A DNA stretch of 64,000 nt from Candidatus Woesebacteria bacterium GW2011_GWB1_33_22 (lineage in GTDB: Bacteria > Patescibacteriota > Microgenomatia > UBA8517), in the NCBI GenBank assembly GCA_000989765.1, contig LBOW01000001.1, forward strand, positions 47,660 through 111,659, in the 5' to 3' direction. Shown in pieces: positions 7,641 to 50,839 of the stretch (positions within the stretch are counted from its first letter, which is position 1; every line of letters begins with the position of its first letter). Below the pieces are notes generated by a model, which did not search any database, was not told the origin of the DNA, and saw only the letters and a list, made by a program, of their open reading frames with translations. The translations under genes were made by a program, and so were the position numbers.

Positions 7641-9167
7641 ATGAACAAAAAAGTAGTTTGGGTAGCAACACCAACATTTTTGTATAGAAATTATTTATAC
7701 CAGAAGATAATTTCTAAATTGCCTAGAAATTATAAGTTTCTATTAATAGGTACAGGTAGTGGATATTTTCTTGAAATTTTACAAAAAAGGGGTTTTCAGG
7801 GTACCGCTATTGACATATCTTCGGAATCTGTTTCTTGTGTTAAAAAAATATTAGATAAAAATAAAATACGAGTAAAAAAGGGAGATATTTTAAATTATCA
7901 AAGTAAAGAGAAATTTGATTTAATATTTTCCTTTGAGGTTATTGAGCATATCAAAGATGATCGCAAAGCCTTAAGTAATATGTACAAACTTTTAAAACCT
8001 GGAGGTAAGTTGATATTTTCGGTACCTGCACATATGAAAGCTTGGGGAAGGATGGATGAAATAGGTGGACATTTTCGTAGATACGAGAAGACAAGTTTAA
8101 CCGAATTGTTGTTAAAATGCGGTTTTAATATTGAAAATTTTTGGTCTTATGGTTTTCCATTTTTAAATGTTATTCAAAGGTTTAGTAAAACAGGCATGTT
8201 TGTTAAAAACTTTAATCATGGTATTTCGGTAAGTGAAAAAACTAAAAAATCTGGAATCAGAACTGATGCTGACCCAAGGTTTTCTTTTTTATATTCAAAC
8301 AAAATTCTATTATACCCATTTTTTTTAATTATGAATTTTTTTATTAAAACTGATTTAGGCTTTGGGTACCTAGTTGTTGCAGACAAAAAAATAAAAACAA
8401 AATTTTCAAACATATTAAAATCAATTCATAATAACTACGCAGTATTTAATGATGAAGTATTGGATGTCAAAGGTAGAACGATGATTGCTAGACAAATTAT
8501 AAAAGTTGTTTCAATATATAGAAATAATACTATTAAACCAAATTTAATGAAAATATTGGATATTGGTTGTTCTTCAGGTATAATTACAGACTATTTGTCT
8601 AAAGAATATGGTCAAGTTGTAGGGATTGATGTTGATAAAGAGTCAATAAATAGTGCCAAAAGTAAATTTAAAAATAAAAATTTAAATTTTTTAGTAAAAG
8701 ACGGTTCCAAAACTGGATTTCCTGATTCCTCCTTTGATGTAATAATTGCTAACCAAATTTATTATTGTTTTTTAAGACCAAAAGATTTTTTTGATGAAGT
8801 TTACCGACTATTAAAACCAGGAGGTATATGTTATTTTGGGGGAAGAAATAAATATACTCTTTGGGATGCACAATATAAACTTCCTCTCCTCTCGGTAATG
8901 CCAAGAAATTTGTCTGACTTTATGGTTAAAACAACGGGGCGTAGCGAAAAGTTTGAGGCTGAATATAGAACATATTGGCAATTGGAAAAAATGTGTAATA
9001 AATTTATAGTTGAAAAAATAACCCCCAAAGCGATTCATAATTATAAAAAATTCGGCTTTGAAAAATTTAAGAAATATAGATTGTTGTTCTCTTCGATACC
9101 TGAATTTGTATGGGCTATATTAGAACCGATACTACCGAATTTTGTTTGGATTTTGAAGAAAATGTAG
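7641..9167 (+). CDS. tandem (dual) class I SAM-dependent methyltransferase fusion
   Basis: Two complete MTase units. First: LLIGTGSGYF...FDLIFSFEVIEHIKDD...LKPGGKLIF. Second: ILDIGCSSGIITDYL...FDVIIANQ...LKPGGICYF. A hydrophobic linker (LLYPFFLIMNFFIKTDLGFGYLVV) lies between them. Confidence 0.75.
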   Translation: MNKKVVWVATPTFLYRNYLYQKIISKLPRNYKFLLIGTGSGYFLEILQKRGFQGTAIDISSESVSCVKKILDKNKIRVKKGDILNYQSKEKFDLIFSFEVIEHIKDDRKALSNMYKLLKPGGKLIFSVPAHMKAWGRMDEIGGHFRRYEKTSLTELLLKCGFNIENFWSYGFPFLNVIQRFSKTGMFVKNFNHGISVSEKTKKSGIRTDADPRFSFLYSNKILLYPFFLIMNFFIKTDLGFGYLVVADKKIKTKFSNILKSIHNNYAVFNDEVLDVKGRTMIARQIIKVVSIYRNNTIKPNLMKILDIGCSSGIITDYLSKEYGQVVGIDVDKESINSAKSKFKNKNLNFLVKDGSKTGFPDSSFDVIIANQIYYCFLRPKDFFDEVYRLLKPGGICYFGGRNKYTLWDAQYKLPLLSVMPRNLSDFMVKTTGRSEKFEAEYRTYWQLEKMCNKFIVEKITPKAIHNYKKFGFEKFKKYRLLFSSIPEFVWAILEPILPNFVWILKKM

Positions 9168-12549: not shown

Positions 12550-14598
12550 ATGCAAAAAAAAATTTCTATTTTTATTGGTATAATCTTTTTTATTTTCGGT
12601 ATTTTAACTCTTCCAGACTATGGAATTAATTGGGATACGGTTAACCATATTCCAAGGGGTCAAATATACCTCCAATATTTGTTAACAGGTGAAAAAGATT
12701 ATTCAAAACTTCCTGCGTACAAAAAATATTGGCAAAAACCAGAGGAACTTTTGTTAGATAAAGGCCAGCGTAATTTAAAAGGTCCATTGAGAAGTTATTA
12801 TCAAAGCGATGCCTACACATTTGATTGGTATATGGAAATTGATGGTACTGGACATCCCCCCTTAAGTGATATTATTTCATCGATCTTTAACAGAGTATTG
12901 TTTGGTAGGTTGAAAATAATCAACGATATTGATTCCTATCGGGTATATGGAGTTTTTTTAGCTTCTATATTAGTCGGATTGATCTACTATTGGATTAGTG
13001 GTTTGTATGGTAAATTTGCAGGCATAATTGCCTCCCTATCATTAGCAACCTATCCATTGTTTTTTGCGGAAAGCCATTTTAATACAGAAAAAGATGTTCC
13101 CGAAACTGTTTATTGGTCATTATTTTTGTATTGTATCTGGAAAGGATTTACGAATAAAAATTGGAAGTGGATATTAGTCTCAGGACTTTTATTTGGTTTA
13201 GCACTAGGAACTAAGTTTAACATTCTATTCTCGATTTTTGTAATTTTACCTTGGTTGCTAATTTTTTTAAAGAAAAGATTATTTGATAAAGTTAATTTAA
13301 ATTTAATTTTTGTAGGTTTTATTGCCCTTTTTATTGGTATTTTAATATTTATTAGTTCTTGGCCATTTTTGTGGCAGGATATTATTTCAGGGGTACAAAA
13401 AGTGTTTGGATTTTATAAGACAATTGGCACCTCGGTAAAGTTTGACACCCAATTTACAGGACCATTTGGAATTAATACCTATCCTTTTTATTGGATAATT
13501 TATACAACTCCAGTTTTAGTTTTAATATTATCTTTTTTTGGTTTAATTTCTTTGTGGGTTGATAGGAAAAAAGATCAGTTTTCAACAGGTTTGCTATTTG
13601 TTTTGTGGTTTATGGTTCCGATTGTCAGAGTAATGATTCCGCATAGTAATGTCTATGGAGGTATAAGACAGGTTATGGAGTACATTCCAGCAATGGCAAT
13701 TCTGGCAGGTATTGGCGCCAGTAAAATTATAAATATAATGAAAGTTGCTTGGTGGAAAAAACTTTCAATCTTTAGTATTTTGTTTTGTTTTGTTTTGATT
13801 ATGTTTAATCTCGTTAAAATACATCCAAATGAAAATGCATTTTTTAATATTTTAATCGGAGGATTATCAGGAGCTAAACAAAGTAATATACCTTCTTGGG
13901 GTAATACATTTGGAGCTGCATATAGACAAGGTGTCGTTTGGATTAATCAAAATGCTAAACCAAATTCAAGATTAGCATATGCCCATGGACTTATGCCAGA
14001 TATACCTCTAATTTGGATCCGACCAGATATAGACACAAGTAACACTAATAGAAGTGGTTTTTTGAGAAATGGAGAATATGTTATTGGTCTTGTTTATGAA
14101 GGAATTTCGAATAGTTTTTATTTTGATGACTATTTAGAAAAAATAGTACAGCCTATGTATAAATCAGGTATTGATGGAGTAACTTTAGTTGGAGTTTGGA
14201 AAAACGAGGATGAACAAATAAAACCTGAATACAAAAAACAAAATATTATAAAAAATATTAGTTGGAAGAAAAGTGACAAAAATGGAGAAATTATAGTTGA
14301 TTTAAATAAAGTCTATACATTGTCATATTTAAAAATGGGTTACAGTGAAAGAGGATGCGCTTCACTAAAATATGGTATTGTTTATTTGTCATCAGATAAT
14401 AAGTTGTGGGTAGAGCTTCGTGATAAATTACCTATGGATGAAATACCACCCCTAAAAGCAATACAACCTTCTAAAGGTCAATTTTATTATCCGTTTGTTG
14501 CGGAGCAAGCTAGATATATTAAAATTAACGTTGATCCAATTACTTCATGTCTAACAAATAAGGCGACTTCAGTGGAAGTTTATAGTTTAGGTTATTGA
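12550..14598 (+). CDS. GT-C fold membrane glycosyltransferase (ArnT/PMT-like) with C-terminal beta-rich putative carbohydrate-binding domain; paralog of 40446-42527
   Basis: N-terminal TM followed by DYGINWD in the first extracytoplasmic loop; the paralog reads DYGINWDE, the ArnT/PMT DE motif. About 11 TM helices, then a roughly 230-aa C-terminal soluble region ending in a discoidin-like stretch. Shared blocks with 40446-42527: GHPPLSDI / GHPALNGV, TYPLFFAESHFN / TYPLFVGEQHFN, IHPNENAFFN / IHPNENVFFN. Confidence 0.6.
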   Translation: MQKKISIFIGIIFFIFGILTLPDYGINWDTVNHIPRGQIYLQYLLTGEKDYSKLPAYKKYWQKPEELLLDKGQRNLKGPLRSYYQSDAYTFDWYMEIDGTGHPPLSDIISSIFNRVLFGRLKIINDIDSYRVYGVFLASILVGLIYYWISGLYGKFAGIIASLSLATYPLFFAESHFNTEKDVPETVYWSLFLYCIWKGFTNKNWKWILVSGLLFGLALGTKFNILFSIFVILPWLLIFLKKRLFDKVNLNLIFVGFIALFIGILIFISSWPFLWQDIISGVQKVFGFYKTIGTSVKFDTQFTGPFGINTYPFYWIIYTTPVLVLILSFFGLISLWVDRKKDQFSTGLLFVLWFMVPIVRVMIPHSNVYGGIRQVMEYIPAMAILAGIGASKIINIMKVAWWKKLSIFSILFCFVLIMFNLVKIHPNENAFFNILIGGLSGAKQSNIPSWGNTFGAAYRQGVVWINQNAKPNSRLAYAHGLMPDIPLIWIRPDIDTSNTNRSGFLRNGEYVIGLVYEGISNSFYFDDYLEKIVQPMYKSGIDGVTLVGVWKNEDEQIKPEYKKQNIIKNISWKKSDKNGEIIVDLNKVYTLSYLKMGYSERGCASLKYGIVYLSSDNKLWVELRDKLPMDEIPPLKAIQPSKGQFYYPFVAEQARYIKINVDPITSCLTNKATSVEVYSLGY

Positions 14599-14632
14599 CA
14601 ATCACCTTTATAATAATTTATAGTATTAAAGT

Positions 14633-15178
14633 ATGAAAGTAGTCAAATTGATAACTATATTGGTGGCAGTGACTTTCTGTCTTTTTACATTAAATCTAAA
14701 GGCTCTAGCAGTATCTTCTGACCCAAGTCCTAATCCGACCAAGGTTGATTCATTCGAGCTATTTTGGCCAATTGTAGCAGGAAAAGTTCAAGGTGATTCG
14801 ATGTATCGTTTAAAAATTTTTAAGGAAAATATGCGTGGATATTTAATTTTGAGTAGTTTGAAAAAAGCAGAGTATCTTACTTTTATTTCGAGTAAACGAC
14901 TAGTAGAATTTGAAGAGCTCGCTTTATCGAGAAAAAATTTTGAGAACGCTACTAAGACTTTAGAAGTATATAGATCTACTCAAAAAAAGATTTTTTCTTA
15001 TCTTGATAAAGCAAAAAGCGAGGGTGTTATGATCACAAATACTCAAAGTATTATAGAGGATACACTCAATAGGCAGCTTACATTACTAAATTATATTCTT
15101 CTTGGTGTGGATAATTCACAAAAGACAGGTGTAGAGGGTGCTATATCTTTTATAAATTCAGAGTTAGAAAAGTTTTAA
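14633..15178 (+). CDS. secreted/N-terminally anchored protein, DUF5667-like
   Basis: Signal/anchor MKVVKLITILVAVTFCLF. The MYRLKIFKENMRGYLILSSLKKAEYLTFISSKRLVEFEEL region resembles the DUF5667 pattern common in CPR genomes. Confidence 0.45.
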   Translation: MKVVKLITILVAVTFCLFTLNLKALAVSSDPSPNPTKVDSFELFWPIVAGKVQGDSMYRLKIFKENMRGYLILSSLKKAEYLTFISSKRLVEFEELALSRKNFENATKTLEVYRSTQKKIFSYLDKAKSEGVMITNTQSIIEDTLNRQLTLLNYILLGVDNSQKTGVEGAISFINSELEKF

Positions 15179-16120
15179 TTAAAATAGTTTTTCTTCAATA
15201 TACTTTTCTGTCAGATTTTCTTTTTGATCTAAGTTAACCAGCATTTCAGCAAGAAGTCCTGTCGTAATTAATTGTATACCTATTATCATTAATAACATTC
15301 CTAGGAACAATAAAGGCTGTCTGTATTGTATTGTGCCTGTAAATACTCTCAAATAAGTAATATATACACCTATTAAAAATCCAATAAATGATAACATTAT
15401 TCCAATTGTTCCAAAAAAATGAGCTGGTTTTTTCATATATCCCGTAAGAAAAGTTACAGTTAGCATGTCTAAAAATCCTTTAATGTTTCTTTGCCAACCA
15501 AATTTACTTTTACCGTATTTTCTTGGTCTATGGATTACTATTATTTCACCTACTTTAAAATTTTGTTTTTCAGCTAAAACTGGAATATATTTATACAATT
15601 CTCCGTATAGGTGTAGATTCTCGACGACGACCCTTTTATAAGCTTTAAGGCCACAATTAAGGTCGTGAATTTTTATACCAGTTAATAATCTTGTTGTCCA
15701 ATTACCAAGTTTTGATGGTAAAGTCTTGGATATTGGATCATGACGGTTCTTTTTCCAACCAGATACTAAATCATACCCTTCACCAAGCATTTTGATAAGT
15801 TTAGGAATTTCTATCGGATTATCTTGTAGATCTGCATCCATAGTAATAATTATCTCTCCATTTGAGTTTTCGAAACCTGCTTGTAAGGCAATAGATTTAC
15901 CAAACCAACCTCTTAGTTTTACTATTTTAATTTTTTTATCCAACTTGTGGAGTTTTTCCAAAATTTGATATGATTTGTCAGTTGAGCCATCATCAACAAA
16001 AACAATTTGGTAATTTATTTTGTTCTTTTTAACTACATCAATAATTTCTAGATATAGTTTTTCTATAGACTCCTCCTCATTTTTAATTGGAATTACAATG
16101 GAAATTAGAAATTTGTTCAT
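15179..16120 (-). CDS. polyprenyl-phosphate glycosyltransferase (GT2, GtrB/ArnC/DPM1-like) with C-terminal TM helices
   Basis: MNKFLISIVIPIKNEE...VFVDDGSTDKS...MDADLQDNP plus two C-terminal TM helices, the typical Und-P-sugar synthase architecture. The six-frame ORF extends to 16132 with a TTG; the ATG at 16120 is the more likely start. Confidence 0.8.
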   Translation of the reverse strand: MNKFLISIVIPIKNEEESIEKLYLEIIDVVKKNKINYQIVFVDDGSTDKSYQILEKLHKLDKKIKIVKLRGWFGKSIALQAGFENSNGEIIITMDADLQDNPIEIPKLIKMLGEGYDLVSGWKKNRHDPISKTLPSKLGNWTTRLLTGIKIHDLNCGLKAYKRVVVENLHLYGELYKYIPVLAEKQNFKVGEIIVIHRPRKYGKSKFGWQRNIKGFLDMLTVTFLTGYMKKPAHFFGTIGIMLSFIGFLIGVYITYLRVFTGTIQYRQPLLFLGMLLMIIGIQLITTGLLAEMLVNLDQKENLTEKYIEEKLF

Positions 16121-16170
16121 TATAAAAACCAATTATACCTTATTAATGCAAAGTGTGATATATTTTCTTT

Positions 16171-16668
16171 ATGTTAAAGCAGTTTATTATTGTTTTTTTC
16201 ACAGTTATTTTTCTAATCTTTATTTCAAGCACGAAACCCTTTTTAGTCATAGGTTCTGATGAATATATATTTGATACTCAAATCACGCAAAAAACAACTT
16301 TAATAAATAAGATTTTTGAGAAGACAGGTTTTTTAATTCGGTTGAATAAATCTAGTAAGGCAAAATATTGGAGAAAACTTGTGGATAAAAGGTTGGCCGA
16401 ATTCAAACTTGTTGTCGAGAATGACGATAAGGGAGCTTTCGAGGAAACTTCATCAAGATATTCAACCTATGTTGCCAATTATTCAGATTATCTTTTAAAT
16501 TCAAATTTAGTTAATGAAAAAAGTATCACCAAGCAGCAATTTGATAAACATCAAGAAATCTTAAACACATTTAAGGATAAATATGAATACAATTCTGCTT
16601 GGTGGATTTTAGTTATGCACCCAATTAATACGTTGGAAATCTTCAAATTAAAGGTCGAAAAATTATGA
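16171..16668 (+). CDS. N-terminally anchored protein, DUF5667-like (second copy)
   Basis: N-terminal hydrophobic helix. FLIRLNKSSKAKYWRKLVDKRLAEFKLVVEND resembles the same pattern as 14633-15178. Confidence 0.4.
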   Translation: MLKQFIIVFFTVIFLIFISSTKPFLVIGSDEYIFDTQITQKTTLINKIFEKTGFLIRLNKSSKAKYWRKLVDKRLAEFKLVVENDDKGAFEETSSRYSTYVANYSDYLLNSNLVNEKSITKQQFDKHQEILNTFKDKYEYNSAWWILVMHPINTLEIFKLKVEKL

Positions 16669-17693
16669 CAAAAGGAAACGAGCCAAAAATTTCGATAATC
16701 ACACCAACATTAAATTCTTCGAGAACAATAAAATTATATTTTGAAGCAATAAAAATGCAAAAATATAATGGTAGTGTAGAAGTGTTAATTATAGATGGTG
16801 GAAGTATGGATGACACACTAGATTTCGCTAAAAAGTATAATAATAAAATATTTTTTAATAAATTAAAAACAGCAGAATCTGGTAAGGCCTTGGGTGTTAA
16901 AAAATCTACTGGTTCAATATGTGCTTTTATTGATTCAGATAATATTCTACCAGATAAAGACTGGTTAAGAAAAATGATTTTGCCGTTTATGATAGATTCT
17001 CAAATTATGGCAACTGAGCCGATAAAGTTCACATATCGCGTAAAGGACCATTGGCTTACTAGATATTTTGCATTAATAGGTATGGGAGATCCTATAAATT
17101 TATTTATTGGTAATTATGATAAATATAGTTACATTACAAATAAGTGGACGAACCTAAAACTTAAGGAAGAAAACAAAAATGGGTATAGAAAAGTAAAGCT
17201 TGAAAATAGAATACCCACAATTGGAGCAAATGGGTTTCTAATAAAAAAAGAAGCACTGACTAGCTACGAACTTGGTGACTATTTGTTTGATGTCGATTTA
17301 CTTGAAACGTTAACCAAAAGAAGCCCAATATTCATTTCTAAGGTTGATGTTGGGATTGTTCATCTTTTTTCAGGTGATATAAGCACATTTATTAGAAAAC
17401 AACGTAGAAGGATTAGAGATTATCTTTATCATTATTATTATAAAAATTCTAAAAAAACTGAAAATTCGCTTGAATCTCCATTCATTTTTTGGGGTATTGT
17501 AAAATTCATCGCATCTTGTATATCCGTATTTCCCTTAATATTTCAGTTATTTGTGGGTTTTACAAGAAAACGAGATGTTGTTTGGTTGTTTCATATACCT
17601 GCTTGTTATATTACTCTTTTTGTTTATACTTACGAAACAGTTAGATCGCTATTTATCAAAGAAGAGTATAGTCGAGTGAATTGGAAACAATGA
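16665..17693 (+). CDS. glycosyltransferase family 2 with C-terminal TM helices
   Basis: KISIITPTLNSSRTI...LIIDGGSMDDT...FIDSDN; C-terminal hydrophobic helices. Confidence 0.75.
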   Translation: MTKGNEPKISIITPTLNSSRTIKLYFEAIKMQKYNGSVEVLIIDGGSMDDTLDFAKKYNNKIFFNKLKTAESGKALGVKKSTGSICAFIDSDNILPDKDWLRKMILPFMIDSQIMATEPIKFTYRVKDHWLTRYFALIGMGDPINLFIGNYDKYSYITNKWTNLKLKEENKNGYRKVKLENRIPTIGANGFLIKKEALTSYELGDYLFDVDLLETLTKRSPIFISKVDVGIVHLFSGDISTFIRKQRRRIRDYLYHYYYKNSKKTENSLESPFIFWGIVKFIASCISVFPLIFQLFVGFTRKRDVVWLFHIPACYITLFVYTYETVRSLFIKEEYSRVNWKQ

Positions 17694-18736
17694 GAAAACT
17701 AAAACCCAAAGTATCAATTATTATAACCAATTATAACGGAGGTCAAATTCTTTTAGATTGTATCGAATCCGTCAAAAAAATTGATTACCCAAATTTCGAG
17801 GTTATTTTAATAGATGATAGGTCAAAGGATGATAGTTTTGAGATGGCAACAAAAAATAAAGGTAAATTAAAATTAATATCATCTCGTAACAAAGTTAATC
17901 TTGGATTTGCAGGTGCAAATAATGCTGGCTTAGAGTTGGCAACTGGTGATTATATATTACTTCTTAATAATGATACAAAGGTTGACAAAAACTTGTTGGC
18001 AAAATTGGTTGATAAATTTGAATCTGATTTGTCAATTGGAGCTGGTCAGTCAAAGATACGTTTTATGGATAAACCGGAATATTTAGACAATGCTGGTTCA
18101 TTTTTAACACGAACTGGTTTTTTGGTGCATTGGGGATTTGGGAGTCGAGATTCTAAAGAATTTAATTCAGAAAAAAAAATATTCTCTGCTAAGGGAGCCT
18201 GTTTATTTATAAGACGAAAAGTTATCGATACGGTAGGTCTTTTTGATGCTGACTTTGTAAGTTATATTGAAGAATCTGATTTTTGTTGGAGGGTGTGGTT
18301 GGCTGGATATAAAGTAATCTTTTACCCAGAAACTTATATATTACATAAGGTTGGATTTACTTTTAGTAAACAATTTAATCCAATTACGGTAAATTATAAT
18401 TCGTTTAAAAACAGAATTTTGTCGTTATATAAAAATCTTGAAACCAAAAATCTAATATTAATTTTAATACCACATTTATTTATAATTTTGGGTCTATCTC
18501 TTTATTATTTAATTAAATTACAGTTTGCAAAATCATCGATGATAATTAGAGCTATTTGGTGGAATGTAGTGAATTTTCAAAAATCCCTTAAGAAAAGAAT
18601 GATTGTTCAAAATTTAAGAGTTAAAACAGACGATGAATTATTTAAAACGATTATGAAAAAGTTTGTCTTTAAAGAAATGTTTTCTCATTTTCTTAAGGTA
18701 GAGGCTAATTTTGCCACAAAACGGACTACTAAATGA
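17681..18736 (+). CDS. glycosyltransferase family 2 (WbbL-like rhamnosyl/hexosyltransferase type)
   Basis: KVSIIITNYNGGQILLDCIESV...ILIDDRSKDDS...LLNNDT...; C-terminal TM. Confidence 0.8.
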   Translation: METMRKLKPKVSIIITNYNGGQILLDCIESVKKIDYPNFEVILIDDRSKDDSFEMATKNKGKLKLISSRNKVNLGFAGANNAGLELATGDYILLLNNDTKVDKNLLAKLVDKFESDLSIGAGQSKIRFMDKPEYLDNAGSFLTRTGFLVHWGFGSRDSKEFNSEKKIFSAKGACLFIRRKVIDTVGLFDADFVSYIEESDFCWRVWLAGYKVIFYPETYILHKVGFTFSKQFNPITVNYNSFKNRILSLYKNLETKNLILILIPHLFIILGLSLYYLIKLQFAKSSMIIRAIWWNVVNFQKSLKKRMIVQNLRVKTDDELFKTIMKKFVFKEMFSHFLKVEANFATKRTTK

Positions 18737-19413
18737 TTAAAAATTTCACTTTTAAAGTGCCGATTTCTGGAAGAGTTTTGGCATGTCTAAAACTTTTAAA
18801 TAAATTTAATGTTAATAATAAAACAATACTTGATGTTGGATCGTCTTTTGGTTGGCTAGAGAGAGAGATATTGAAAACTGGTAAATCAAATAAATTGATT
18901 GGTGTTGATCCTAATAAAGATGCAGTTATGTTTGCACAAAAAAAAGTCAAAGGGGCAAGGTTTTTGGTTGGAGACGCCTTAAATTTACCACTTAAGAATA
19001 ATCAGGTAGATGTGGTTACCTTGTTTGATGTAATTGAGCATGTTCCAGAGAACTTTGAGACTAAAGCTCTAAACGAAGTAAATAGGGTTTTAATGAAAGG
19101 TGGATTACTGTTTTTATCTACTCCTAATTCTAAATTTTTGTTAAATATTTTAGACGTAGCATACTTATTTGGTCATAGACACTATAAAAAAGAGCAATTG
19201 ATTAAATATTTAAAGAAATCTAAATTTAAGATCATTGAATCTAGAATTTTAGGGGGATACTGGTTTAGCATATATCTTATTTGGTTATATTTAACTAAAA
19301 GGATTACAGGAAACTTTCTCCCCAGAAATACTTTTTTAGAAAATAGGGAAGCGTCAGAATTTTTAAAAGATAATGGTATTCATACACATTTCATAGTTGC
19401 CAGGAAAATGTGA
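18733..19413 (+). CDS. class I SAM-dependent methyltransferase with C-terminal hydrophobic segment
   Basis: ILDVGSSFGW...VDVVTLFDVIEHVPE...MKGGLLFLSTPN; C-terminal hydrophobic stretch ILGGYWFSIYLIWLYL. Confidence 0.8.
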   Translation: MIKNFTFKVPISGRVLACLKLLNKFNVNNKTILDVGSSFGWLEREILKTGKSNKLIGVDPNKDAVMFAQKKVKGARFLVGDALNLPLKNNQVDVVTLFDVIEHVPENFETKALNEVNRVLMKGGLLFLSTPNSKFLLNILDVAYLFGHRHYKKEQLIKYLKKSKFKIIESRILGGYWFSIYLIWLYLTKRITGNFLPRNTFLENREASEFLKDNGIHTHFIVARKM

Positions 19414-19418
19414 ATAGT

Positions 19419-20345
19419 TTAGTGAAAACCAATTTTTTGGTGAATAAGGTATTCTGGTCTTTTTTTAACCTCATCATAAATACGTGCAAGATATTCACCT
19501 ATAATACCTAAGGTTATAAGTTGAACCCCGCCCATAAAAAGAATTGATGATATTGTTGATGTCCAACCCATAATTCCTAAATTAATAAAAAATTTGAGTA
19601 TAAAAAGTATAACAATTAAAACAAAAGCAAATCCGGAAAAAATAAAGCCTAATATGCTTGCGATTCTTAAAGGGACAAATGAGAAAGAAACAATTCCATC
19701 CATGGCTAGTTTAAAAAGCCTAGAAAAGCTTGCTTCATTTCCAGCATATCTTTTTGACCTTTCGTATATGACACCTGTTTGTTTAAAACCTGTCCAAGCT
19801 CTTAATCCACTAAAGTACTTATTTTTTTCAGGCAAATCAATAATTATGTTTACGATTTTTCTGTCTAATATTGAAAAAGTGCCAGCGTCAATTGGCATTT
19901 TTAAAAAAGATATTTTGTCAAATAGTTTATAAAAAGATTTAAATAAAAATTTTCTTACAAAACTCTCTTTTCTTTTTCGCTTAACACCATAAACTACATC
20001 ATACCCTTGTAATGATTTTTTATACATTTTTTCAATTATATGTGGTGGATCTTGCAAATCGGCATCCATTACGACCACTTTTTCACCTTTTGAATGGACT
20101 AATCCTGCTGTTATCGCGGGCATATGACCGAAATTTCTAGAAAAAGATATAATTTTAATATGATTATCTTTTTTGGAAATTGGGCGCAAAATGTTTAAAG
20201 AATTATCATAACTGCCATCATCAATAAAAATCACTTCATAGCTACTACTTATTTTCTGAAAAGTTGTTTTAATTTTCTCATAAAGAGTTTTGATGTTTCC
20301 TTCCTCATTGTAAATCGGAACAATAACTGATATCTTTAATTTCAT
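19419..20345 (-). CDS. polyprenyl-phosphate glycosyltransferase (GT2, GtrB/ArnC/DPM1-like), second copy
   Basis: MKLKISVIVPIYNEEGNI...VIFIDDGSYDNS...MDADLQDPP plus two C-terminal TM helices. The six-frame ORF extends to 20381; the start at 20345 is more plausible and relieves the overlap with the divergent gene. Confidence 0.8.
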   Translation of the reverse strand: MKLKISVIVPIYNEEGNIKTLYEKIKTTFQKISSSYEVIFIDDGSYDNSLNILRPISKKDNHIKIISFSRNFGHMPAITAGLVHSKGEKVVVMDADLQDPPHIIEKMYKKSLQGYDVVYGVKRKRKESFVRKFLFKSFYKLFDKISFLKMPIDAGTFSILDRKIVNIIIDLPEKNKYFSGLRAWTGFKQTGVIYERSKRYAGNEASFSRLFKLAMDGIVSFSFVPLRIASILGFIFSGFAFVLIVILFILKFFINLGIMGWTSTISSILFMGGVQLITLGIIGEYLARIYDEVKKRPEYLIHQKIGFH

Positions 20346-20363
20346 AAGTGCAATATTACTAGA

Positions 20364-21083
20364 ATGAAGTTGATTAAGCAAATTCTAATATTTTTTATAA
20401 CAATTTTCTTTAAGATTTTCTTTTTAGTGTTTGGCGAGCCTAAAATTTCTAGCAGATTAAGGTCTGTGGTTAATTTATACAAGGGAAATAGTTTTTCCTC
20501 ACTATTTAAAATTATAAGGGTTTGGGATGCTCCTTTTGAAGAAATCGAAAAAGCTGTGCCGGAAAACGGTAAAATTGTTGACTTGGGATGTGGTGATGGA
20601 ATTTTGGGAAATTATTTAGCTTTATCGTCCAAAAAAAGAAGTGTTGTTGGGATAGAATTTAATAAGAAAAGGATAAGTGAGGCAAATAAAGGCATAGTTA
20701 ATACTAAATTTGTCTATGGCGATATTTTAAAAAGTAACTTTACTAAAGCAGATGCAATTCTACTTATACACGTGCTTCATCATCTAGAATCCTATATAGA
20801 TCAAGAAAAGCTTCTAACTAAATGCAAAGAAAGATTAAATAGGGGGGGTAAGATAATTATTGCAGAGATAATAGAAAGACCTTTACATAAGTTTTTATTT
20901 ACAGCCTTAACAGATTTTTTAATTGTACCTATACTGTTTGAAGGAAGGTTAATGAATACAATGATACATTTTAGAACCTTAGACAAATGGAAAACATTAT
21001 TTAAGAGAATGGGATTTAAATATAAATACTCGTTAAATCATCAAAATATGCCTTTCTCACACGCCATTTTTACATTGGAGTAA
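20364..21083 (+). CDS. class I SAM-dependent methyltransferase with N-terminal hydrophobic helix
   Basis: IVDLGCGDGILGNYL...AILLIHVLHHL...LNRGGKIII; N-terminal helix ILIFFITIFFKIFFLVF. Confidence 0.75.
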   Translation: MKLIKQILIFFITIFFKIFFLVFGEPKISSRLRSVVNLYKGNSFSSLFKIIRVWDAPFEEIEKAVPENGKIVDLGCGDGILGNYLALSSKKRSVVGIEFNKKRISEANKGIVNTKFVYGDILKSNFTKADAILLIHVLHHLESYIDQEKLLTKCKERLNRGGKIIIAEIIERPLHKFLFTALTDFLIVPILFEGRLMNTMIHFRTLDKWKTLFKRMGFKYKYSLNHQNMPFSHAIFTLE

Positions 21084-22310
21084 CTAGATAAATTTTAATT
21101 TTTTAGCTGCAAAGAGAGTCATTTTCAGAAGCAACCATCCGTGAGAATAACGATTAATGTTTGTTTGACCATATGTTCTTTCTCGATATCTAGCAGGAAT
21201 TTCGCAAATTTTTAAATTGAGTTTGGTGGCGCCAAATAAAAGATCATAGTCTCCGAAAGGATCAAAATTGCCAAAGTAATTTCTATTATTACAAATTTTA
21301 ATGTAATCTTTACGGAACAAAGCTTTAGTTCCACAAAGCGTGTCATTTACTTTTTGATCTAATAAATAAGTAAAAATAAAACTAAATATTTTATTTCCAA
21401 AAAAGTTTAGCGTTTGCATTGCCTGTTTTTCTAATGGATAAACTAAACGAGAACCATTTGCAAAATCACAATATCCTTTCGAAATAGCTTCATAAAATTT
21501 GATTAAATCCTTAGGATTTACGGTCAGATCGGCATCAAGAATAATTAAGATATCGTTTTTGGCTTTTTTGAATCCTAATCTAACAGCATCTGCCTTACCT
21601 ACCCCCTGTTGTTTATATAATTTTGCTATATTTTTATTTTCTTTATTCTTATTAATCTCCTTCAAAATATAATCATAAGTTTTATCCTTAGATTTTCCTT
21701 CTACAAAAATAATTTCCATATTTTTACCTATTTTAGGTATTTTAGATATCATATTTGGGATATTTCCTTGTTCGTTTCTAGCTGGGATTATTATTGAAAC
21801 AGAATATTCCTTTGTTGGGGGACGCTTTTTAAAAATTATATAAGTAGTTAAACACAGATCGTTTATTAGTGGTAATTTTGCAACCAAAGTATTAATAAAT
21901 GAAGTTACGATGCCAAGATCGATAGGTAATAGAAATCTTTTACCTTTTCTAATAACATCAAATCCCTCTAGATTAAAAACATTTACAATATCATCAGTTG
22001 ATAACCAATTTGAAGGCTTATCTTCCTTTTTTCTTAAACCCAATTTTGTAGCAAAATTTAAAATAGGTTTCCAGAATTGATTAAAATAAATCACCACAAA
22101 CCTTGTATCTTTGTGTGAATATTTTTTTAATTTTTTTATCTCAAACTGTATATCATTCCAATGAGCAATTGTATTTGGAAGAACAATGTAATCATATCTC
22201 TGTGGCTGTATATTTGCGTTTGAATAAGTAAGTACTTTAGAACTCTTAGGTGTTAATTGACTTACTAACTTTTTAATATCTCGTTGGTAAAATTTAGAAA
22301 AAACCTTCAT
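21084..22310 (-). CDS. glycosyltransferase family 2 fused to an N-terminal about 160-aa methyltransferase-like remnant domain
   Basis: C-terminal SVSIIIPARNEQGNI...IFVEGKSKDKT...ILDADLTVNP (GT2). The N-terminal part (YDYIVLPNTIAHWNDIQ...) looks like MTase post-motif-II regions but lacks the GxGxG SAM motif. Confidence 0.7.
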   Translation of the reverse strand: MKVFSKFYQRDIKKLVSQLTPKSSKVLTYSNANIQPQRYDYIVLPNTIAHWNDIQFEIKKLKKYSHKDTRFVVIYFNQFWKPILNFATKLGLRKKEDKPSNWLSTDDIVNVFNLEGFDVIRKGKRFLLPIDLGIVTSFINTLVAKLPLINDLCLTTYIIFKKRPPTKEYSVSIIIPARNEQGNIPNMISKIPKIGKNMEIIFVEGKSKDKTYDYILKEINKNKENKNIAKLYKQQGVGKADAVRLGFKKAKNDILIILDADLTVNPKDLIKFYEAISKGYCDFANGSRLVYPLEKQAMQTLNFFGNKIFSFIFTYLLDQKVNDTLCGTKALFRKDYIKICNNRNYFGNFDPFGDYDLLFGATKLNLKICEIPARYRERTYGQTNINRYSHGWLLLKMTLFAAKKLKFI

Positions 22311-24799: not shown

Positions 24800-25744
24800 A
24801 TGAACAAAGCTTTTTCAAAACTTTTACCAATACTTACGTGTCCTATCTGTCACAAAAATTTAAAGTTAATTAATAAAAATTTCGTGTGTACAGGAAATCA
24901 TAAATTTTCAGTCAAAAGTTATGTTCCAGTTTTTACCAAACTCAATGATTATCTTGAAATTGAATCCAATGCATGGGAGGAAGAATGGAAATCTAAAATT
25001 TCCAAAAAAGCCTTAAAAGCCTATGATATCAACATGGCAGTTTTTAAAAGTTTAGGCTATTGGGAAGAAAGTGGAAATGCTTCAAACCTAATACCAAGTA
25101 AGAAAGATAATATTGTTCTTGACTTAGGTTGCGGTAATGGTGTTTCAACGAGTAAACTCAAAGCAACACAAGCAGTAGGGTTGGATCTTTCTACTAAACA
25201 ATTGGTAAAATCCAAAAATAAATATCCAAACTGTAGTTTTATTGTAGGTGATGCAAGAAAACTTCCCTTTAAAGATTCATCATTTGATATGGTTGTTGCA
25301 ATAAATATGCTTCACCATGTCAAAAATCCTCAAGTTGTGATCAAAGAATGTTATAGAGTTTTAAAAAGTGGGGGACGTCTTTTAACTGTAGATCCGAACC
25401 TTTATAACCCTATTGGATTTATAGGTAGAGGTATGTATAAATTATTAAGACTTAAAAAGATTTTTCCAACATTTCCACAGTTTGCATTAGGAGAAGACGA
25501 ATATCAATTTTCAAAGAAAAATTATTACAATCTTTTTACCAAGTCACCATTTAAAAATTTTACGATTAGGCCACACAGACTTGAAAGAATATTTTTCTTT
25601 GCTAGTATTTTGATACCTAGTTTAATTATGTTTCCTTTCTATAAAAATATTATTTACATACTTAGTCGCATGGGAGAGGGCTTGGTTAAAATTCCACCGC
25701 TGGACAATATTTGTTATTTTTGGAAATGTGAGGCTATTAGGTGA
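24800..25744 (+). CDS. class I SAM methyltransferase with N-terminal Cys4-type zinc ribbon (RlmA-like architecture) and C-terminal hydrophobic segment
   Basis: LTCPICHKNL...CTGNHKF zinc-ribbon; VLDLGCGNGVST...FDMVVAINMLHHV...LKSGGRLL; C-terminal hydrophobic FFFASILIPSLIMFPFY. Confidence 0.75.
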   Translation: MNKAFSKLLPILTCPICHKNLKLINKNFVCTGNHKFSVKSYVPVFTKLNDYLEIESNAWEEEWKSKISKKALKAYDINMAVFKSLGYWEESGNASNLIPSKKDNIVLDLGCGNGVSTSKLKATQAVGLDLSTKQLVKSKNKYPNCSFIVGDARKLPFKDSSFDMVVAINMLHHVKNPQVVIKECYRVLKSGGRLLTVDPNLYNPIGFIGRGMYKLLRLKKIFPTFPQFALGEDEYQFSKKNYYNLFTKSPFKNFTIRPHRLERIFFFASILIPSLIMFPFYKNIIYILSRMGEGLVKIPPLDNICYFWKCEAIR

Positions 25745-34736: not shown

Positions 34737-35093
34737 ATGAATATCTATACAATTGGGATTGTCTTAGTTGGAATGATTATCCTTCTTATTACTGCTGAGG
34801 TAATGAGTCATTATTTTAAAATTCACTCAGATAAATTTTACGTTATTTTTCATTTTGCAGGTGGTGCATTATCTTTCCTTTTATTTTTAAATTTATTTAA
34901 TAATAAACTTCTTGCTTTTTTCTTAGTTTTAGTAATTGGTATACTTTGGGAAATACATGAGTGGATATTATGGAAATTATATATTAAAACAAAATTATAT
35001 AAACCAAAGAGTAAGGATACAATTTGTGATTTGGTAATGGATATTTCCGGAGCGTTAATATTTTATGTTATTGAAATTTTACACATATTTTAA
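34737..35093 (+). CDS. small 3-4 TM membrane protein (GtrA-like size/topology)
   Basis: 118 aa with 3-4 hydrophobic helices, in a locus with GtrB-like enzymes. No motif-level proof. Confidence 0.4.
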   Translation: MNIYTIGIVLVGMIILLITAEVMSHYFKIHSDKFYVIFHFAGGALSFLLFLNLFNNKLLAFFLVLVIGILWEIHEWILWKLYIKTKLYKPKSKDTICDLVMDISGALIFYVIEILHIF

Positions 35094-50455: not shown

Positions 50456-50839
50456 ATGATTAGATCTTATTTATTTAAATTATTTAATAAAAAGTATGAC
50501 AATTTAAATCAATGGGCAATAGACCATTTGGTTGGATTATTTATTTTTAATATAATCATGTCTTTGCTTGTGTTGCTTAACACTGCTGAATATTTCAAAC
50601 CATTTTTTTTCTTAGGAATAAATGTAATTTTTTTCATTGGGCTGATATTATCCATACCTCTTCTCGGAGCAAGGTCAAAATCTATGTTTTTTATATCAAT
50701 AATTTTTTTAGTTTTTGCTATTTTTTTAAAAATATTAAAGATTGAAATTTGGGCAGAGAGAACAGCTGTTTATACTTTTCAATCTTTACTTATAGGAGTT
50801 ATTTTACTAACAAGGGAATCAATCAATAAACATTGGTAA
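50456..50839 (+). CDS. small 4-TM membrane protein
   Basis: 127 aa with four hydrophobic helices; start immediately after the upstream stop. Confidence 0.4.
   Translation: MIRSYLFKLFNKKYDNLNQWAIDHLVGLFIFNIIMSLLVLLNTAEYFKPFFFLGINVIFFIGLILSIPLLGARSKSMFFISIIFLVFAIFLKILKIEIWAERTAVYTFQSLLIGVILLTRESINKHW

What the first reader, a model, noticed from the sequence alone, without database searches (positions are those of the whole stretch)
15179..20381. Two GtrB/ArnC-type polyprenyl-phosphate sugar synthases interleaved with GT2s and membrane-anchored methyltransferases
15179-16120 (-) and 19419-20345 (-) both have the DPM1/GtrB architecture (GT2 catalytic domain with DAD and DxD motifs plus two C-terminal TM helices). 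That predicts two different lipid-linked monosaccharide donors feeding the GT-C enzymes. The small 3-4 TM proteins at 34737-35093 and 50456-50839 are candidate GtrA-like flippase partners. Both synthase genes are divergently arranged, separated from + strand genes by 18-50 bp.
Basis: partly seen in the sequence, partly recalled or inferred. Interest (0 to 1): 0.5.

Follow-up and report, generated by a model that had tools for sequence, protein, structure and literature searches.

The report
Two lipid-phosphate sugar synthase genes
Two genes in a large cell-surface sugar-decoration island of an uncultured groundwater bacterium (Candidatus Woesebacteria) encode ordinary membrane enzymes that load a sugar onto a lipid carrier, but the two small membrane proteins proposed as their GtrA-type flippase partners are not GtrA family members.

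Summary
ORF A (15179-16120, minus) and ORF B (19419-20345, minus) are GT2 enzymes that align over their full length, both C-terminal transmembrane helices included, with the solved polyprenyl-phosphate glycosyltransferases ArnC and GtrB. A scores 7e-42 against ArnC. B scores 4e-79 against GtrB. Both keep the DADLQD metal/catalytic motif and the phosphate-binding Arg125 and Arg200. They share only 30% identity.

A belongs to a clade that is 63-76% identical across Patescibacteria. In three related loci it sits with the same PMT_2-type GT-C enzyme and the same GT2. B is a generic GtrB/CsbB/PgfS-like enzyme and recurs in one of those three loci.

The core reading is well supported: two lipid-linked monosaccharide donors for extracytoplasmic GT-C glycosyltransferases. 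The sugars cannot be named. A is not an ArnC equivalog and B is not a PgfS equivalog.

The GtrA proposal fails. Neither small ORF matches PF04138, and profile-profile probability is 0.1-0.3%, whereas genuine GtrA genes beside B's relatives score about 1e-24. One small ORF is DUF2238/VanZ-like. The other is a conserved partner of a 991-aa membrane protein.

Only one of the two methyltransferases has a membrane anchor. This is a new member of a known kind and of low interest.

The parts
15179..16120 (-). ORF A, 313 aa. Polyprenyl-phosphate glycosyltransferase of the ArnC-like clade: GT2 domain, juxtamembrane region and two C-terminal transmembrane helices.
   Evidence: Pfam GT2 3e-31. NCBIfam ArnC model 2e-54, 184.7 bits, below the 529-bit cutoff, covering residues 6-295. 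PDB ArnC 9hwj 7e-42 over 6-296 and GtrB 5ekp 9e-30. Transmembrane helices at 239-257 and 270-289. D95-A-D97-L-Q99-D100, R126, K132 and R200 are invariant in 120 homologs. Homologs are 64-76% identical in Patescibacteria.
19419..20345 (-). ORF B, 308 aa. Polyprenyl-phosphate glycosyltransferase of the GtrB/CsbB/PgfS-like clade.
   Evidence: Pfam GT2 1e-30. NCBIfam PgfS 1e-77, 261 bits against a 500-bit cutoff, full length. PDB GtrB 5ekp 4e-79 over 3-304, about 40% identity. Transmembrane helices at 231-249 and 265-283. D94, D96, Q98, D99, R125 and R199 are kept. T156 replaces GtrB D157.
12550..14598 (+). 682-aa GT-C glycosyltransferase (PMT_2) with a C-terminal F5/8 type C (discoidin-like) domain. 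Likely consumer of ORF A's product.
   Evidence: Pfam PMT_2 2e-14, PMT 8e-4 and F5_F8_type_C 1.7e-4, the last below the Pfam cutoff. About 10 hydrophobic segments. A 47-48% identical protein lies beside the A homolog in L007, L008 and L009. It has a paralog at 40446-42527.
14633..15178 (+). 181-aa DUF5667 protein with an N-terminal signal or anchor. It ends 1 bp before the 3' end of ORF A.
   Evidence: Pfam DUF5667 1.4e-6. N-terminal hydrophobic segment at 1-29. DUF5667 genes recur in L007, L009 and L091.
16171..16668 (+). 165-aa DUF5667-like protein with an N-terminal anchor. First gene of the plus-strand run divergent from ORF A.
   Evidence: Pfam DUF5667 4e-5, below the cutoff. Hydrophobic segment at 1-29.
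16665..17693 (+). 342-aa GT2 glycosyltransferase with C-terminal hydrophobic helices.
   Evidence: Pfam GT2 2.6e-15. KD peaks at 281-299 (2.14) and 305-323 (1.48). A 53% identical homolog lies next to the A homolog in L008.
17690..18736 (+). 348-aa GT2 glycosyltransferase (Glyco_trans_2_3 type) with one C-terminal transmembrane helix. Conserved neighbour of ORF A.
   Evidence: Pfam GT2 1.5e-28 and Glyco_tranf_2_3 3e-14. Transmembrane helix at 255-275. 47-58% identical homologs sit beside the A homolog in L007, L008 and L009. Gene callers give 348 aa.
18733..19413 (+). 226-aa class I SAM methyltransferase with no detectable membrane anchor.
   Evidence: Pfam Methyltransf_11 1e-17. No KD window reaches 1.2. 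An ortholog is present in L009.
20364..21083 (+). 239-aa SAM methyltransferase with an N-terminal transmembrane helix, divergent from ORF B across an 18-bp gap.
   Evidence: Pfam Methyltransf_23 1.7e-13. Transmembrane helix at 6-25, KD 2.39.
21084..22310 (-). 408-aa protein. An N-terminal domain of about 170 aa of unknown function is followed by a DPMS/AglJ-like GT2 with no C-terminal transmembrane helix. Possible third polyprenyl-phosphate GT.
   Evidence: NCBIfam AglJ 1.7e-27 (residues 171-403, model positions 2-218 of 293) and Dol-P hexose transferase 2e-13. PDB DPMS 5mlz 6e-13. DAD is kept. The C-terminal 'RYRERTYGQTNI' resembles the R200 motif, read directly from the sequence.
34737..35093 (+). 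118-aa four-helix membrane protein of the DUF2238/VanZ-like kind. Not GtrA.
   Evidence: No PF04138 hit at E <= 10. Only 33 cluster representatives among 1.84 billion proteins. Invariant H39, G43, W71, E72, E75, D94, D98 and G105. Family members hit DUF2238 (7 of 25, best 1.8e-5) and VanZ (5 of 25). hhalign against GtrA gives 0.3%. Homolog P0141 lies beside rpoD and dnaG.
50456..50839 (+). 127-aa four-helix membrane protein of an orphan family, coupled to the 991-aa membrane protein at 47480-50455. Not GtrA.
   Evidence: No Pfam or NCBIfam hit. Only 18 homologs, none with a Pfam domain. hhalign against GtrA gives 0.1%. In L091 a 48% identical homolog again overlaps the end of a 992-aa protein that is 37% identical to 47480-50455.

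Best explanation
ORF A and ORF B are two distinct polyprenyl-phosphate glycosyltransferases (Pren-P GTs) of the GT2 GtrB/ArnC/DPMS class.

[quoted passage not shown] It takes a nucleotide-activated sugar, coordinates it through Mg2+ and the DADLQD motif, and threads undecaprenyl phosphate between its juxtamembrane helices to a pocket of basic residues. It then transfers one sugar to the lipid phosphate.

The resulting lipid-linked monosaccharides must be flipped across the membrane. Outside the cell they serve as donors for the GT-C glycosyltransferases that fill this 64-kb island of Candidatus Woesebacteria GWC2_33_12, which decorate a surface glycan or surface proteins.

A is the conserved, core enzyme of the pair. 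Its likely cognate transferase is the adjacent 682-aa PMT_2 GT-C. B is a more generic GtrB/CsbB/PgfS-type enzyme that probably supplies a second, different sugar.

What is shown: family membership, architecture and retention of catalytic and acceptor-binding residues. What is inferred: the lipid acceptor, that the two sugars differ, which GT-C uses which donor, and the identity of the flippase. The flippase is not a GtrA family protein encoded in this window.
For: Full-length homology to solved Pren-P GTs, including both transmembrane helices. A matches ArnC at 7e-42 and GtrB at 9e-30. B matches GtrB at 4e-79 and ArnC at 1e-47.

NCBIfam ranks ArnC, PgfS and AglJ first for both proteins, ahead of all soluble GT2 families.

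Two C-terminal hydrophobic helices are present in each.

Residues that are nearly invariant in 54 GtrB relatives are present in both A and B: D94 (50 of 54), D96 (54 of 54), Q98 (53 of 54) and R200 (53 of 54). R125 is also kept, and R122 is conservatively replaced by K. The roles of these residues are taken from PMC4728340, PMC12698845 and PMC12690121.

A and B are 30% identical. Both are retained in the orthologous locus L009, at 71% and 65% identity.

The A clade carries RG[N/W/G]FGKS where GtrB and ArnC have RN[F/Y]G. That Asn is a substrate-coordinating residue, N77 in ArnC.

A, the 12550-type GT-C and the 348-aa GT2 co-occur in 3 of 3 related loci.

Five proteins in the window reach Pfam GT-C families: PMT_2, PMT, PIG-V or GT22.
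Against: There is no biochemical evidence. The donor sugar cannot be read from the sequence. The GtrB structure paper itself notes weak coordination of the sugar.

Both proteins fall well below the NCBIfam equivalog cutoffs: 184.7 against 529 bits, and 261 against 500 bits.

A lacks the R290 equivalent, having N296, and B has T156 at GtrB's D157 and F135 at A136. D157N, R290 and A136 substitutions all abolished GtrB activity in vitro. D157 is D in only 37 of 54 relatives, and the 2025 papers favour D94 as the catalytic base.

No recognisable flippase partner was found next to either gene.

The A-to-GT-C pairing rests on synteny in only three loci.
Confidence: 0.78

Rival explanations
1. A and B are both Pren-P GTs but make the same lipid-linked sugar. 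They would be redundant or differently regulated paralogs, so there is only one donor.
For: Both have the same architecture and catalytic motif. Sugar specificity cannot be read from the sequence. B is absent from two of the three related loci that carry A.
Against: They share only 30% identity and have different nearest characterised relatives. Their donor-loop sequences differ at the N71/N77 position. Both are retained in L009. Several distinct nucleotide-sugar pathways are encoded in the window.
Confidence: 0.12
2. ORF A is a true ArnC ortholog that makes Und-P-L-Ara4FN for an Arn-type lipid A or surface modification, as some automatic annotations of its homologs state.
For: The best NCBIfam and PDB hits for A are ArnC. 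Homologs are auto-named ArnC in Woesebacteria records. DegT aminotransferases scoring 333 and 206 bits on the ArnB model are present in the window.
Against: A scores 184.7 bits against the 529-bit equivalog cutoff and is only 34% identical. The DegT genes also fall below the ArnB cutoff of 631 bits and score better on PseC. No formyltransferase (ArnA N-terminal domain), no ArnD-type deformylase and no ArnT match was found among the roughly 50 ORFs scanned. From general knowledge, Patescibacteria of this group are not known to make lipid A. A lacks the N77 and R-after-GEY residues of ArnC.
Confidence: 0.03
3. One or both enzymes glycosylate a membrane acceptor other than a polyprenyl phosphate, for example a glycolipid anchor or a lipid-linked oligosaccharide. 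They would then be ordinary membrane-anchored GT2 enzymes rather than donor synthases.
For: Generic GT2 Pfam hits. Several positions shown to be essential in GtrB differ: R122K in both, R290N in A, and A136F and D157T in B.
Against: Alignment to Pren-P GTs is continuous through the juxtamembrane and transmembrane regions. The phosphate-binding R125 and R200 are kept, and K is found at position 122 in 10 of 54 relatives. Every top-ranked characterised relative uses a polyprenyl phosphate acceptor.
Confidence: 0.07

Closest known systems
GtrB (Synechocystis sll0501, PDB 5EKP), the Und-P glucose synthase of the three-component GtrA/GtrB/GtrC O-antigen glucosylation systems. Also streptococcal GtrB and PgfS, which work with YfhO-type GT-C enzymes in protein O-glycosylation (PMC12041528).
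   Same: ORF B aligns end to end at about 40% identity. It has the same GT-A domain, juxtamembrane helices and two transmembrane helices, and the same DADLQD, R125 and R200 residues. GT-C enzymes are encoded nearby. ORF A shares the architecture at 28% identity.
   Different: No GtrA gene lies beside either gene, whereas six of ten small membrane ORFs sampled beside B's relatives in other phyla are GtrA. B has T at D157 and F at A136. B falls below the PgfS equivalog cutoff. The sugar is unknown.
ArnC (PmrF), the Und-P-L-Ara4FN synthase of the polymyxin-resistance Arn pathway (PDB 9HWJ, 8VXH, 9BHC; PMC12690121).
   Same: It is the best structural and HMM match for ORF A: 7e-42, 34% identity, residues 6-296. 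The HDLNCG(L/F)KAY motif resembles ArnC's GDYGCMLRAY. A is paired with a PMT_2-family GT-C, as ArnC is with ArnT.
   Different: A is far below the equivalog cutoff. No ArnA formyltransferase, ArnD, ArnE/F or ArnT match is present. The donor loop has RGWFG instead of NRNYG. A has no R after the GEY-equivalent motif.
Multi-component transmembrane glycosylation systems of Gram-positive cell-wall polymers (CsbB/GtcA/YfhO, GtlA/GtlB; review PMC8035078), and the three-component pentofuranose systems with a MATE flippase and a GT-C carrying a C-terminal carbohydrate-binding module (PMC11127046).
   Same: The logic is the same: a cytoplasmic Pren-P GT, then a flippase, then an extracytoplasmic GT-C. 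GT-C proteins here carry C-terminal F5/8 type C domains, like the carbohydrate-binding module on GT136. Two MOP/Wzx-type transporters are present in the window.
   Different: The scale is far larger: two to four Pren-P-GT-like genes and five or more GT-C genes in 64 kb. The flippase is unidentified. The acceptor polymer or protein is unknown.
Dolichyl-phosphate mannose synthase (PfDPMS, PDB 5MLZ; human DPM1) and archaeal AglJ.
   Same: Same Pren-P GT superfamily. A and B hit DPMS at 6e-18 and 1e-16. The neighbouring 408-aa ORF (21084-22310) is closest to this branch.
   Different: A and B have the bacterial two-helix C-terminus, not the four-helix GtrA-like domain of PfDPMS. Identity is much lower than to GtrB or ArnC.

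Membership tests
Polyprenyl-phosphate glycosyltransferases (GtrB/ArnC/DPMS class of GT2) | GT-A fold GT2 catalytic domain with a DxD motif followed by Q, as in DADLQD | tested here: met
   Pfam PF00535 3e-31 for A and 1e-30 for B. D95-A-D97-L-Q99-D100 in A and D94-A-D96-L-Q98-D99 in B. These are invariant in 120 A homologs.
Polyprenyl-phosphate glycosyltransferases (GtrB/ArnC/DPMS class of GT2) | Juxtamembrane region plus two C-terminal transmembrane helices (bacterial GtrB/ArnC subtype) | tested here: met
   KD peaks in A at 239-257 and 270-289, and in B at 231-249 and 265-283. Alignments to the GtrB and ArnC chains continue through the juxtamembrane and transmembrane regions. No 3D model of A or B was made.
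Polyprenyl-phosphate glycosyltransferases (GtrB/ArnC/DPMS class of GT2) | Basic residues that bind the acceptor phosphate (GtrB R122, R125, K132, R200; ArnC R128, R131, R137, R205) | tested here: met
   A has K123, R126, K132 and R200. B has K122, R125, R131 and R199. R122 is replaced by K in both, as in 10 of 54 relatives.
Polyprenyl-phosphate glycosyltransferases (GtrB/ArnC/DPMS class of GT2) | Other positions where substitution abolished GtrB activity (D157N, R290, A136) | tested here: inconclusive
   A has N296 at R290 but keeps an ArnC-type D153. B has T156 at D157 and F135 at A136. D157 is D in only 37 of 54 relatives and is described as less conserved in PMC12698845.
Polyprenyl-phosphate glycosyltransferases (GtrB/ArnC/DPMS class of GT2) | Catalysis of nucleotide-sugar to Und-P/Dol-P transfer | not testable with these tools
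   This needs a membrane assay with labelled nucleotide sugars.
ArnC equivalog (Und-P-L-Ara4FN transferase) | Score above the NCBIfam NF007986 cutoff of 529 bits | tested here: not met
   A scores 184.7 bits and B 182.3 bits.
ArnC equivalog (Und-P-L-Ara4FN transferase) | Arn pathway context: ArnA formyltransferase/decarboxylase, ArnB, ArnD, ArnT, ArnE/F | tested here: not met
   There is no formyltransferase or deformylase family hit in any ORF scanned. No GT-C candidate matches any named NCBIfam transferase family. The DegT genes are below the ArnB cutoff, and the SDR half of the DegT-SDR fusion scores only 46 bits on the ArnA model. Only the 64-kb window was examined.
PgfS equivalog (NF047588) | Score above the cutoff of 500 bits | tested here: not met
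   B scores 261.4 bits and A 126.9 bits.
GtrA family (PF04138, GtrA/DPMS transmembrane domain), tested for the small ORFs 34737-35093 and 50456-50839 | Match to the PF04138 profile | tested here: not met
   No hit at E <= 10 for either ORF. None of 25 homologs of the 118-aa ORF hits it at E <= 1. None of 18 homologs of the 127-aa ORF carries any Pfam domain. As a positive control, six GtrA genes beside B's relatives score 1.6e-16 to 8.6e-25.
GtrA family (PF04138, GtrA/DPMS transmembrane domain), tested for the small ORFs 34737-35093 and 50456-50839 | Remote homology by profile-profile comparison | tested here: not met
   hhalign of A1 against the GtrA alignment A3 gives 0.3% probability, and A2 against A3 gives 0.1%.
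GtrA family (PF04138, GtrA/DPMS transmembrane domain), tested for the small ORFs 34737-35093 and 50456-50839 | Conserved linkage to a GtrB-type gene | tested here: not met
   In the window the small ORFs lie 14 kb and 30 kb from B and are translationally coupled to large membrane proteins. A homolog of the 118-aa ORF lies beside rpoD and dnaG. A homolog of the 127-aa ORF follows a 992-aa membrane protein.
DUF2238/VanZ-like membrane proteins, tested for 34737-35093 | Match to PF09997 or PF04892 | tested here: inconclusive
   The window protein itself has no hit. Seven of 25 family members hit DUF2238 (best 1.8e-5) and five hit VanZ (best 0.0057). Precomputed Pfam lists DUF2238 for P0141 and P0145.

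The most novel reading that the evidence does not exclude
These Microgenomates run multi-component extracytoplasmic glycosylation without any GtrA-type flippase. The lipid-linked monosaccharides made by A and B would be translocated by an unrecognised protein. Candidates are the orphan 127-aa four-helix protein coupled to the 991-aa membrane protein, the DUF2238-like 118-aa protein with its invariant His/Glu/Asp set, or one of the two MOP transporters. In addition, the highly conserved A clade, with its altered donor loop RG[N/W/G]FG, would make a lipid-linked sugar not yet described for this enzyme class.
Probability: 0.12. Interest if true: 0.5.

Novelty: new member of a known kind. Interest (0 to 1): 0.22.

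Why it matters
The result correctly labels two genes in a very large surface-glycosylation island of an uncultured Candidate Phyla Radiation bacterium. It also shows that the ArnC-like gene forms a conserved module with a PMT_2 GT-C and a GT2 across related genomes.

That gives a concrete starting point for working out what these tiny, host-dependent bacteria put on their surface. It also corrects database names that call these proteins ArnC.

The enzyme class, its mechanism and the three-component logic are all well established. The finding adds no new principle.

The one open point is that no GtrA-type flippase is present. That reflects an absence within 64 kb, not a demonstrated alternative.

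Tried and rejected
1. GtrA identity of the two small ORFs. Tested with Pfam at E <= 10, scans of family members, and hhalign against a GtrA alignment built from genuine neighbours of GtrB homologs. All were negative.

3. Promoter and terminator scan of 14500-21200. It found 40 promoter-like sites against 36.6 +/- 5.8 expected, and 2 terminator-like sites against 2.3 expected. Nothing can be said about regulation of the divergent genes.

4. Naming the sugar. I looked for sugar-contacting residues in the GtrB and ArnC structure papers. The glucose is weakly coordinated in GtrB, and no specificity determinants are defined.

5. ArnT-like identity of the GT-C next to A. phmmer against the PDB gave nothing. 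NCBIfam gave no family for eight of ten polytopic proteins and only weak, unrelated hits for the other two.

6. Paralogy among the 13 polytopic proteins. Only two pairs are related. I therefore do not claim that all 13 are GT-C enzymes.

7. A true Arn pathway. Rejected on cutoffs and missing partners.

8. A literature search for CPR-specific descriptions of this module found nothing specific.

Full report
**Source and setting**

The window has about 29% G+C throughout. Exact-sequence look-ups place ORF A and ORF B on Rifle aquifer groundwater metagenome scaffolds, for example ANAN16-1 scaffold_56 of 187 kb. One window protein is recorded in NCBI as a hypothetical protein of Candidatus Woesebacteria bacterium GWC2_33_12.

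Almost every ORF in the 64 kb belongs to glycan biosynthesis:
- GT4 and GT2 glycosyltransferases
- SDR epimerases and dehydratases
- three DegT aminotransferases
- hexapeptide acyltransferases
- a carbamoyltransferase
- an AsnB-type amidotransferase
- about seven SAM methyltransferase genes
- two MOP/Wzx-type transporters
- about 13 large polytopic membrane proteins

Five of the polytopic proteins reach GT-C Pfam families (PMT_2, PMT, PIG-V or GT22). These are 2409-3446, 12550-14598, 25741-27930, 40446-42527 and 57922-59424. A sixth, 61767-63440, has only a weak AftD GT-C hit at E = 0.005.

**Checking the observation**

ORF A (15179-16120, minus, 313 aa) and ORF B (19419-20345, minus, 308 aa) are real genes. 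Independent gene calls give the same lengths.

Both have a Pfam GT2 domain at residues about 6-167, with E = 3e-31 and 1e-30.

Kyte-Doolittle analysis finds two C-terminal hydrophobic helices in each. In A they lie at 239-257 and 270-289. In B they lie at 231-249 and 265-283.

The gaps to the divergent plus-strand genes are exactly 50 bp and 18 bp.

Between A and B lie a DUF5667-like ORF, two GT2 genes with C-terminal hydrophobic helices, and a methyltransferase.

One descriptor is only half right. The methyltransferase inside the interval (18733-19413) has no hydrophobic segment. Only the methyltransferase at 20364-21083 has an N-terminal transmembrane helix.

**What the two proteins are**

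Against all PDB sequences, A's best matches are the three ArnC entries (7e-42, residues 6-297), followed by GtrB (9e-30) and PfDPMS (6e-18).

B's best matches are GtrB (4e-79, residues 3-304), followed by ArnC (1e-47) and DPMS (1e-16).

The alignments run without large gaps through the juxtamembrane and transmembrane regions. Neither is met.

NCBIfam ranks ArnC, PgfS and AglJ first for A, and PgfS and ArnC first for B. All scores are far below the equivalog cutoffs: 184.7 against 529 bits, and 261.4 against 500 bits. Both proteins are therefore members of the enzyme class, but neither is an ortholog of a characterised enzyme.

**Functional residues**

I rebuilt the GtrB and ArnC sequences from the HMMER output. 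I aligned them with A, B, a B ortholog, and 54 near-full-length GtrB relatives recovered from species-representative genomes.

The positions that are nearly invariant in those 54 relatives are all present in A and B:

| GtrB position | Conservation in 54 relatives | A and B |
|---|---|---|
| D94 | 50/54 | present in both |
| D96 | 54/54 | present in both |
| Q98 | 53/54 | present in both |
| R200 | 53/54 | present in both |

R125 is also kept. R122 is K in both, as in 10 of the 54 relatives.

According to the structural papers, D96 and Q98 hold the Mg2+. D94 (D100 in ArnC) is now the favoured catalytic base. R122, R125, K132 and R200 bind the polyprenyl phosphate.

The departures are:
- B has T156 at GtrB D157 and F135 at A136.
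- A has N296 at R290.
- The A clade has RG[N/W/G]FGKS where GtrB and ArnC have RN(F/Y)G.

That last Asn (N71 in GtrB, N77 in ArnC) is 53 of 54 conserved and is listed among ArnC's substrate-coordinating residues.

D157 is D in only 37 of the 54 relatives, and the 2025 GtrB paper calls it less conserved. I do not treat the B substitution as disqualifying.

**Two enzymes, probably two products**

A and B are 30% identical.

A belongs to a tight clade. The 120 best database hits are 64-76% identical, come from Patescibacteria and Woesebacteria, and some are auto-named ArnC.

I looked at three such loci on long contigs (L007, L008, L009). Each has an A homolog at 63-71% identity flanked by a 47-48% identical homolog of the 682-aa PMT_2 GT-C (12550-14598) and a 47-58% identical homolog of the 348-aa GT2 (17690-18736). 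In each, the A homolog lies on the opposite strand to its neighbours, as it does here.

B recurs in only one of the three, L009, at 65% identity and with the same flanking methyltransferase. Its nearest relatives among species-representative genomes are 40-46% identical proteins from Bacteroidota, Chloroflexota and Firmicutes.

Taken together, A plus the adjacent GT-C looks like a conserved synthase/transferase pair of the ArnC/ArnT, GtrB/GtrC, CsbB/YfhO or PgfS/PgfM1 kind. B is an accessory second synthase.

That the two sugars differ is an inference. It rests on divergence, co-retention and the different donor loop. The sugars cannot be named. The GtrB structure paper reports that the glucose is only loosely coordinated, so no specificity code exists.

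**The flippase proposal**

Neither small ORF matches the GtrA family PF04138, even at E <= 10.

*The 118-aa ORF (34737-35093).* It has only 33 cluster representatives among 1.84 billion proteins. Its family has invariant H39, G43, W71, E72, E75, D94, D98 and G105. Members hit DUF2238 (7 of 25, best 1.8e-5) and VanZ (5 of 25), and never GtrA. A 46% identical homolog sits next to rpoD and dnaG, not next to glycosylation genes.

*The 127-aa ORF (50456-50839).* It has 18 homologs, none with a Pfam domain. In another metagenome contig, a 48% identical homolog again overlaps the 3' end of a 992-aa membrane protein that is 37% identical to 47480-50455. It is therefore a partner of that large protein.

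*Positive control.* I collected small membrane ORFs lying within 2.5 kb of B's relatives in other phyla. Six of the ten tested are GtrA, with E values of 1.6e-16 to 8.6e-25. hhalign of the two small-ORF families against an alignment of those six GtrA proteins gives 0.3% and 0.1% probability.

*Conclusion.* No GtrA family protein is encoded in this window or within 8 kb of the A homologs in L007-L009. The flippase is unidentified. The two MOP/Wzx transporters (3455-4705 and 54829-56109) are alternatives. A MATE-family flippase serves this role in the pentofuranose three-component systems (PMC11127046).

**Rivals**

*A true Arn pathway.* This is rejected. The equivalog cutoff is not met. No formyltransferase, deformylase or ArnT match was found. 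The DegT genes score better on PseC than on ArnB.

*A non-polyprenyl acceptor.* This is unlikely, given the retained phosphate-binding arginines and the full-length similarity to Pren-P GTs.

*Redundancy, meaning the same sugar from both enzymes.* This cannot be excluded, and I give it about 0.12.

**Additional Pren-P-GT-like genes**

The 408-aa ORF at 21084-22310 has a DPMS/AglJ-type GT2 domain. It scores 1.7e-27 on AglJ and 6e-13 on DPMS. It keeps DAD and an R200-like RERTYGQT motif, and it has no C-terminal transmembrane helix.

The 374-aa ORF at 32636-33760 fuses a hexapeptide acyltransferase to a truncated GtrB/ArnC-like GT2 domain. In that domain the first Asp of the DxD motif is Pro.

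The number of lipid-linked donors made in this island may therefore be more than two.

**Verdict**

The finding is real and its core interpretation is right. It describes ordinary members of a well-understood enzyme class in an expected context. The GtrA sub-claim is wrong. Novelty: new member of a known kind. Interest: low.

Noticed in passing
window 32636-33760 (+): A 374-aa fusion of an N-terminal hexapeptide acyltransferase (PDB 8vr6, 2e-20) with a GtrB/ArnC-like GT2 catalytic domain (GtrB 2.7e-16, ArnC 2.5e-15) that has no transmembrane helices. In the GT2 domain the DxD motif reads P-A-D, so the proposed catalytic first Asp is missing. It follows two DegT aminotransferase genes. This echoes the ArnB, then ArnA N-acylation, then ArnC order, with acylation and transfer fused in one protein.
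   Followed up: partly
window 21084-22310 (-): A 408-aa protein with an unassigned N-terminal domain of about 170 aa followed by a DPMS/AglJ-like GT2. It keeps DAD and an R200-like motif and has no C-terminal transmembrane helix. It may be a third polyprenyl-phosphate sugar synthase. Homologs lie near the A homolog in L007 (35% identity).
   Followed up: partly
window 47480-50455 (+) and 50456-50839 (+); L091 266-3244 and 3237-3629: A 991-aa polytopic protein with no family hit, carrying a 'GLDTNFPLDP' motif after its first transmembrane helix and a C-terminal anchor. It is followed without a gap by a 127-aa four-helix membrane protein. The pair is conserved in another metagenome contig, at 37% and 48% identity, next to DUF5667 and PMT_2 genes.
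   Followed up: partly
window 34737-35093 (+): A small DUF2238/VanZ-like four-helix membrane protein (AlphaFold pLDDT 96) with an invariant polar set in the membrane: H39, E72, E75, D94, D98, plus a WExxEW motif. This suggests a metal or substrate site. Here it overlaps the start of a 907-aa membrane protein with an F5/8 type C domain. A homolog lies beside rpoD and dnaG.
   Followed up: partly
window 14633-15178 (+), 16171-16668 (+); also L007, L009, L091: Small DUF5667 proteins with N-terminal anchors recur beside PMT_2 GT-C genes in every related locus examined. They could be acceptor substrates or accessory factors of the GT-C enzymes. Their function is unknown.
   Followed up: no
window 12550-14598 / 40446-42527 and 35065-37788 / 37773-40442: Two pairs of paralogous large membrane proteins (phmmer 1e-114 and 1e-150). 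Three of the four (12550, 35065, 37773) have C-terminal F5/8 type C (discoidin-like) hits, only that of 35065 above the Pfam cutoff. This resembles the carbohydrate-binding module on GT136-type GT-C enzymes.
   Followed up: partly
window 27985-32632 (+): A nucleotide-sugar cassette. It contains a UDP-GlcNAc 3-dehydrogenase-like GFO/IDH/MocA enzyme, a NeuD/PglB-type acetyltransferase, a 694-aa DegT aminotransferase-SDR fusion, and a second DegT closest to PseC and ArnB. All score below the equivalog cutoffs. It points to di-amino or acetamido sugars.
   Followed up: no
window 43392-45113 (+), 56097-57920 (-), 7641-9167 (+): Glycan-tailoring enzymes inside the island: a NodU/CmcH-type carbamoyltransferase, an AsnB-type glutamine amidotransferase, and a 508-aa double SAM-methyltransferase fusion. 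Together with about five further methyltransferase genes, they imply a heavily methylated, carbamoylated or amidated glycan.
   Followed up: no
homologs of ORF A in public records (P0029, P0080, P0108): Several Woesebacteria and uncultured-bacterium records name the A-clade protein 'Undecaprenyl-phosphate 4-deoxy-4-formamido-L-arabinose transferase'. On the evidence here (184.7 bits against a 529-bit cutoff, and no Arn partners) that name over-annotates the protein.
   Followed up: yes
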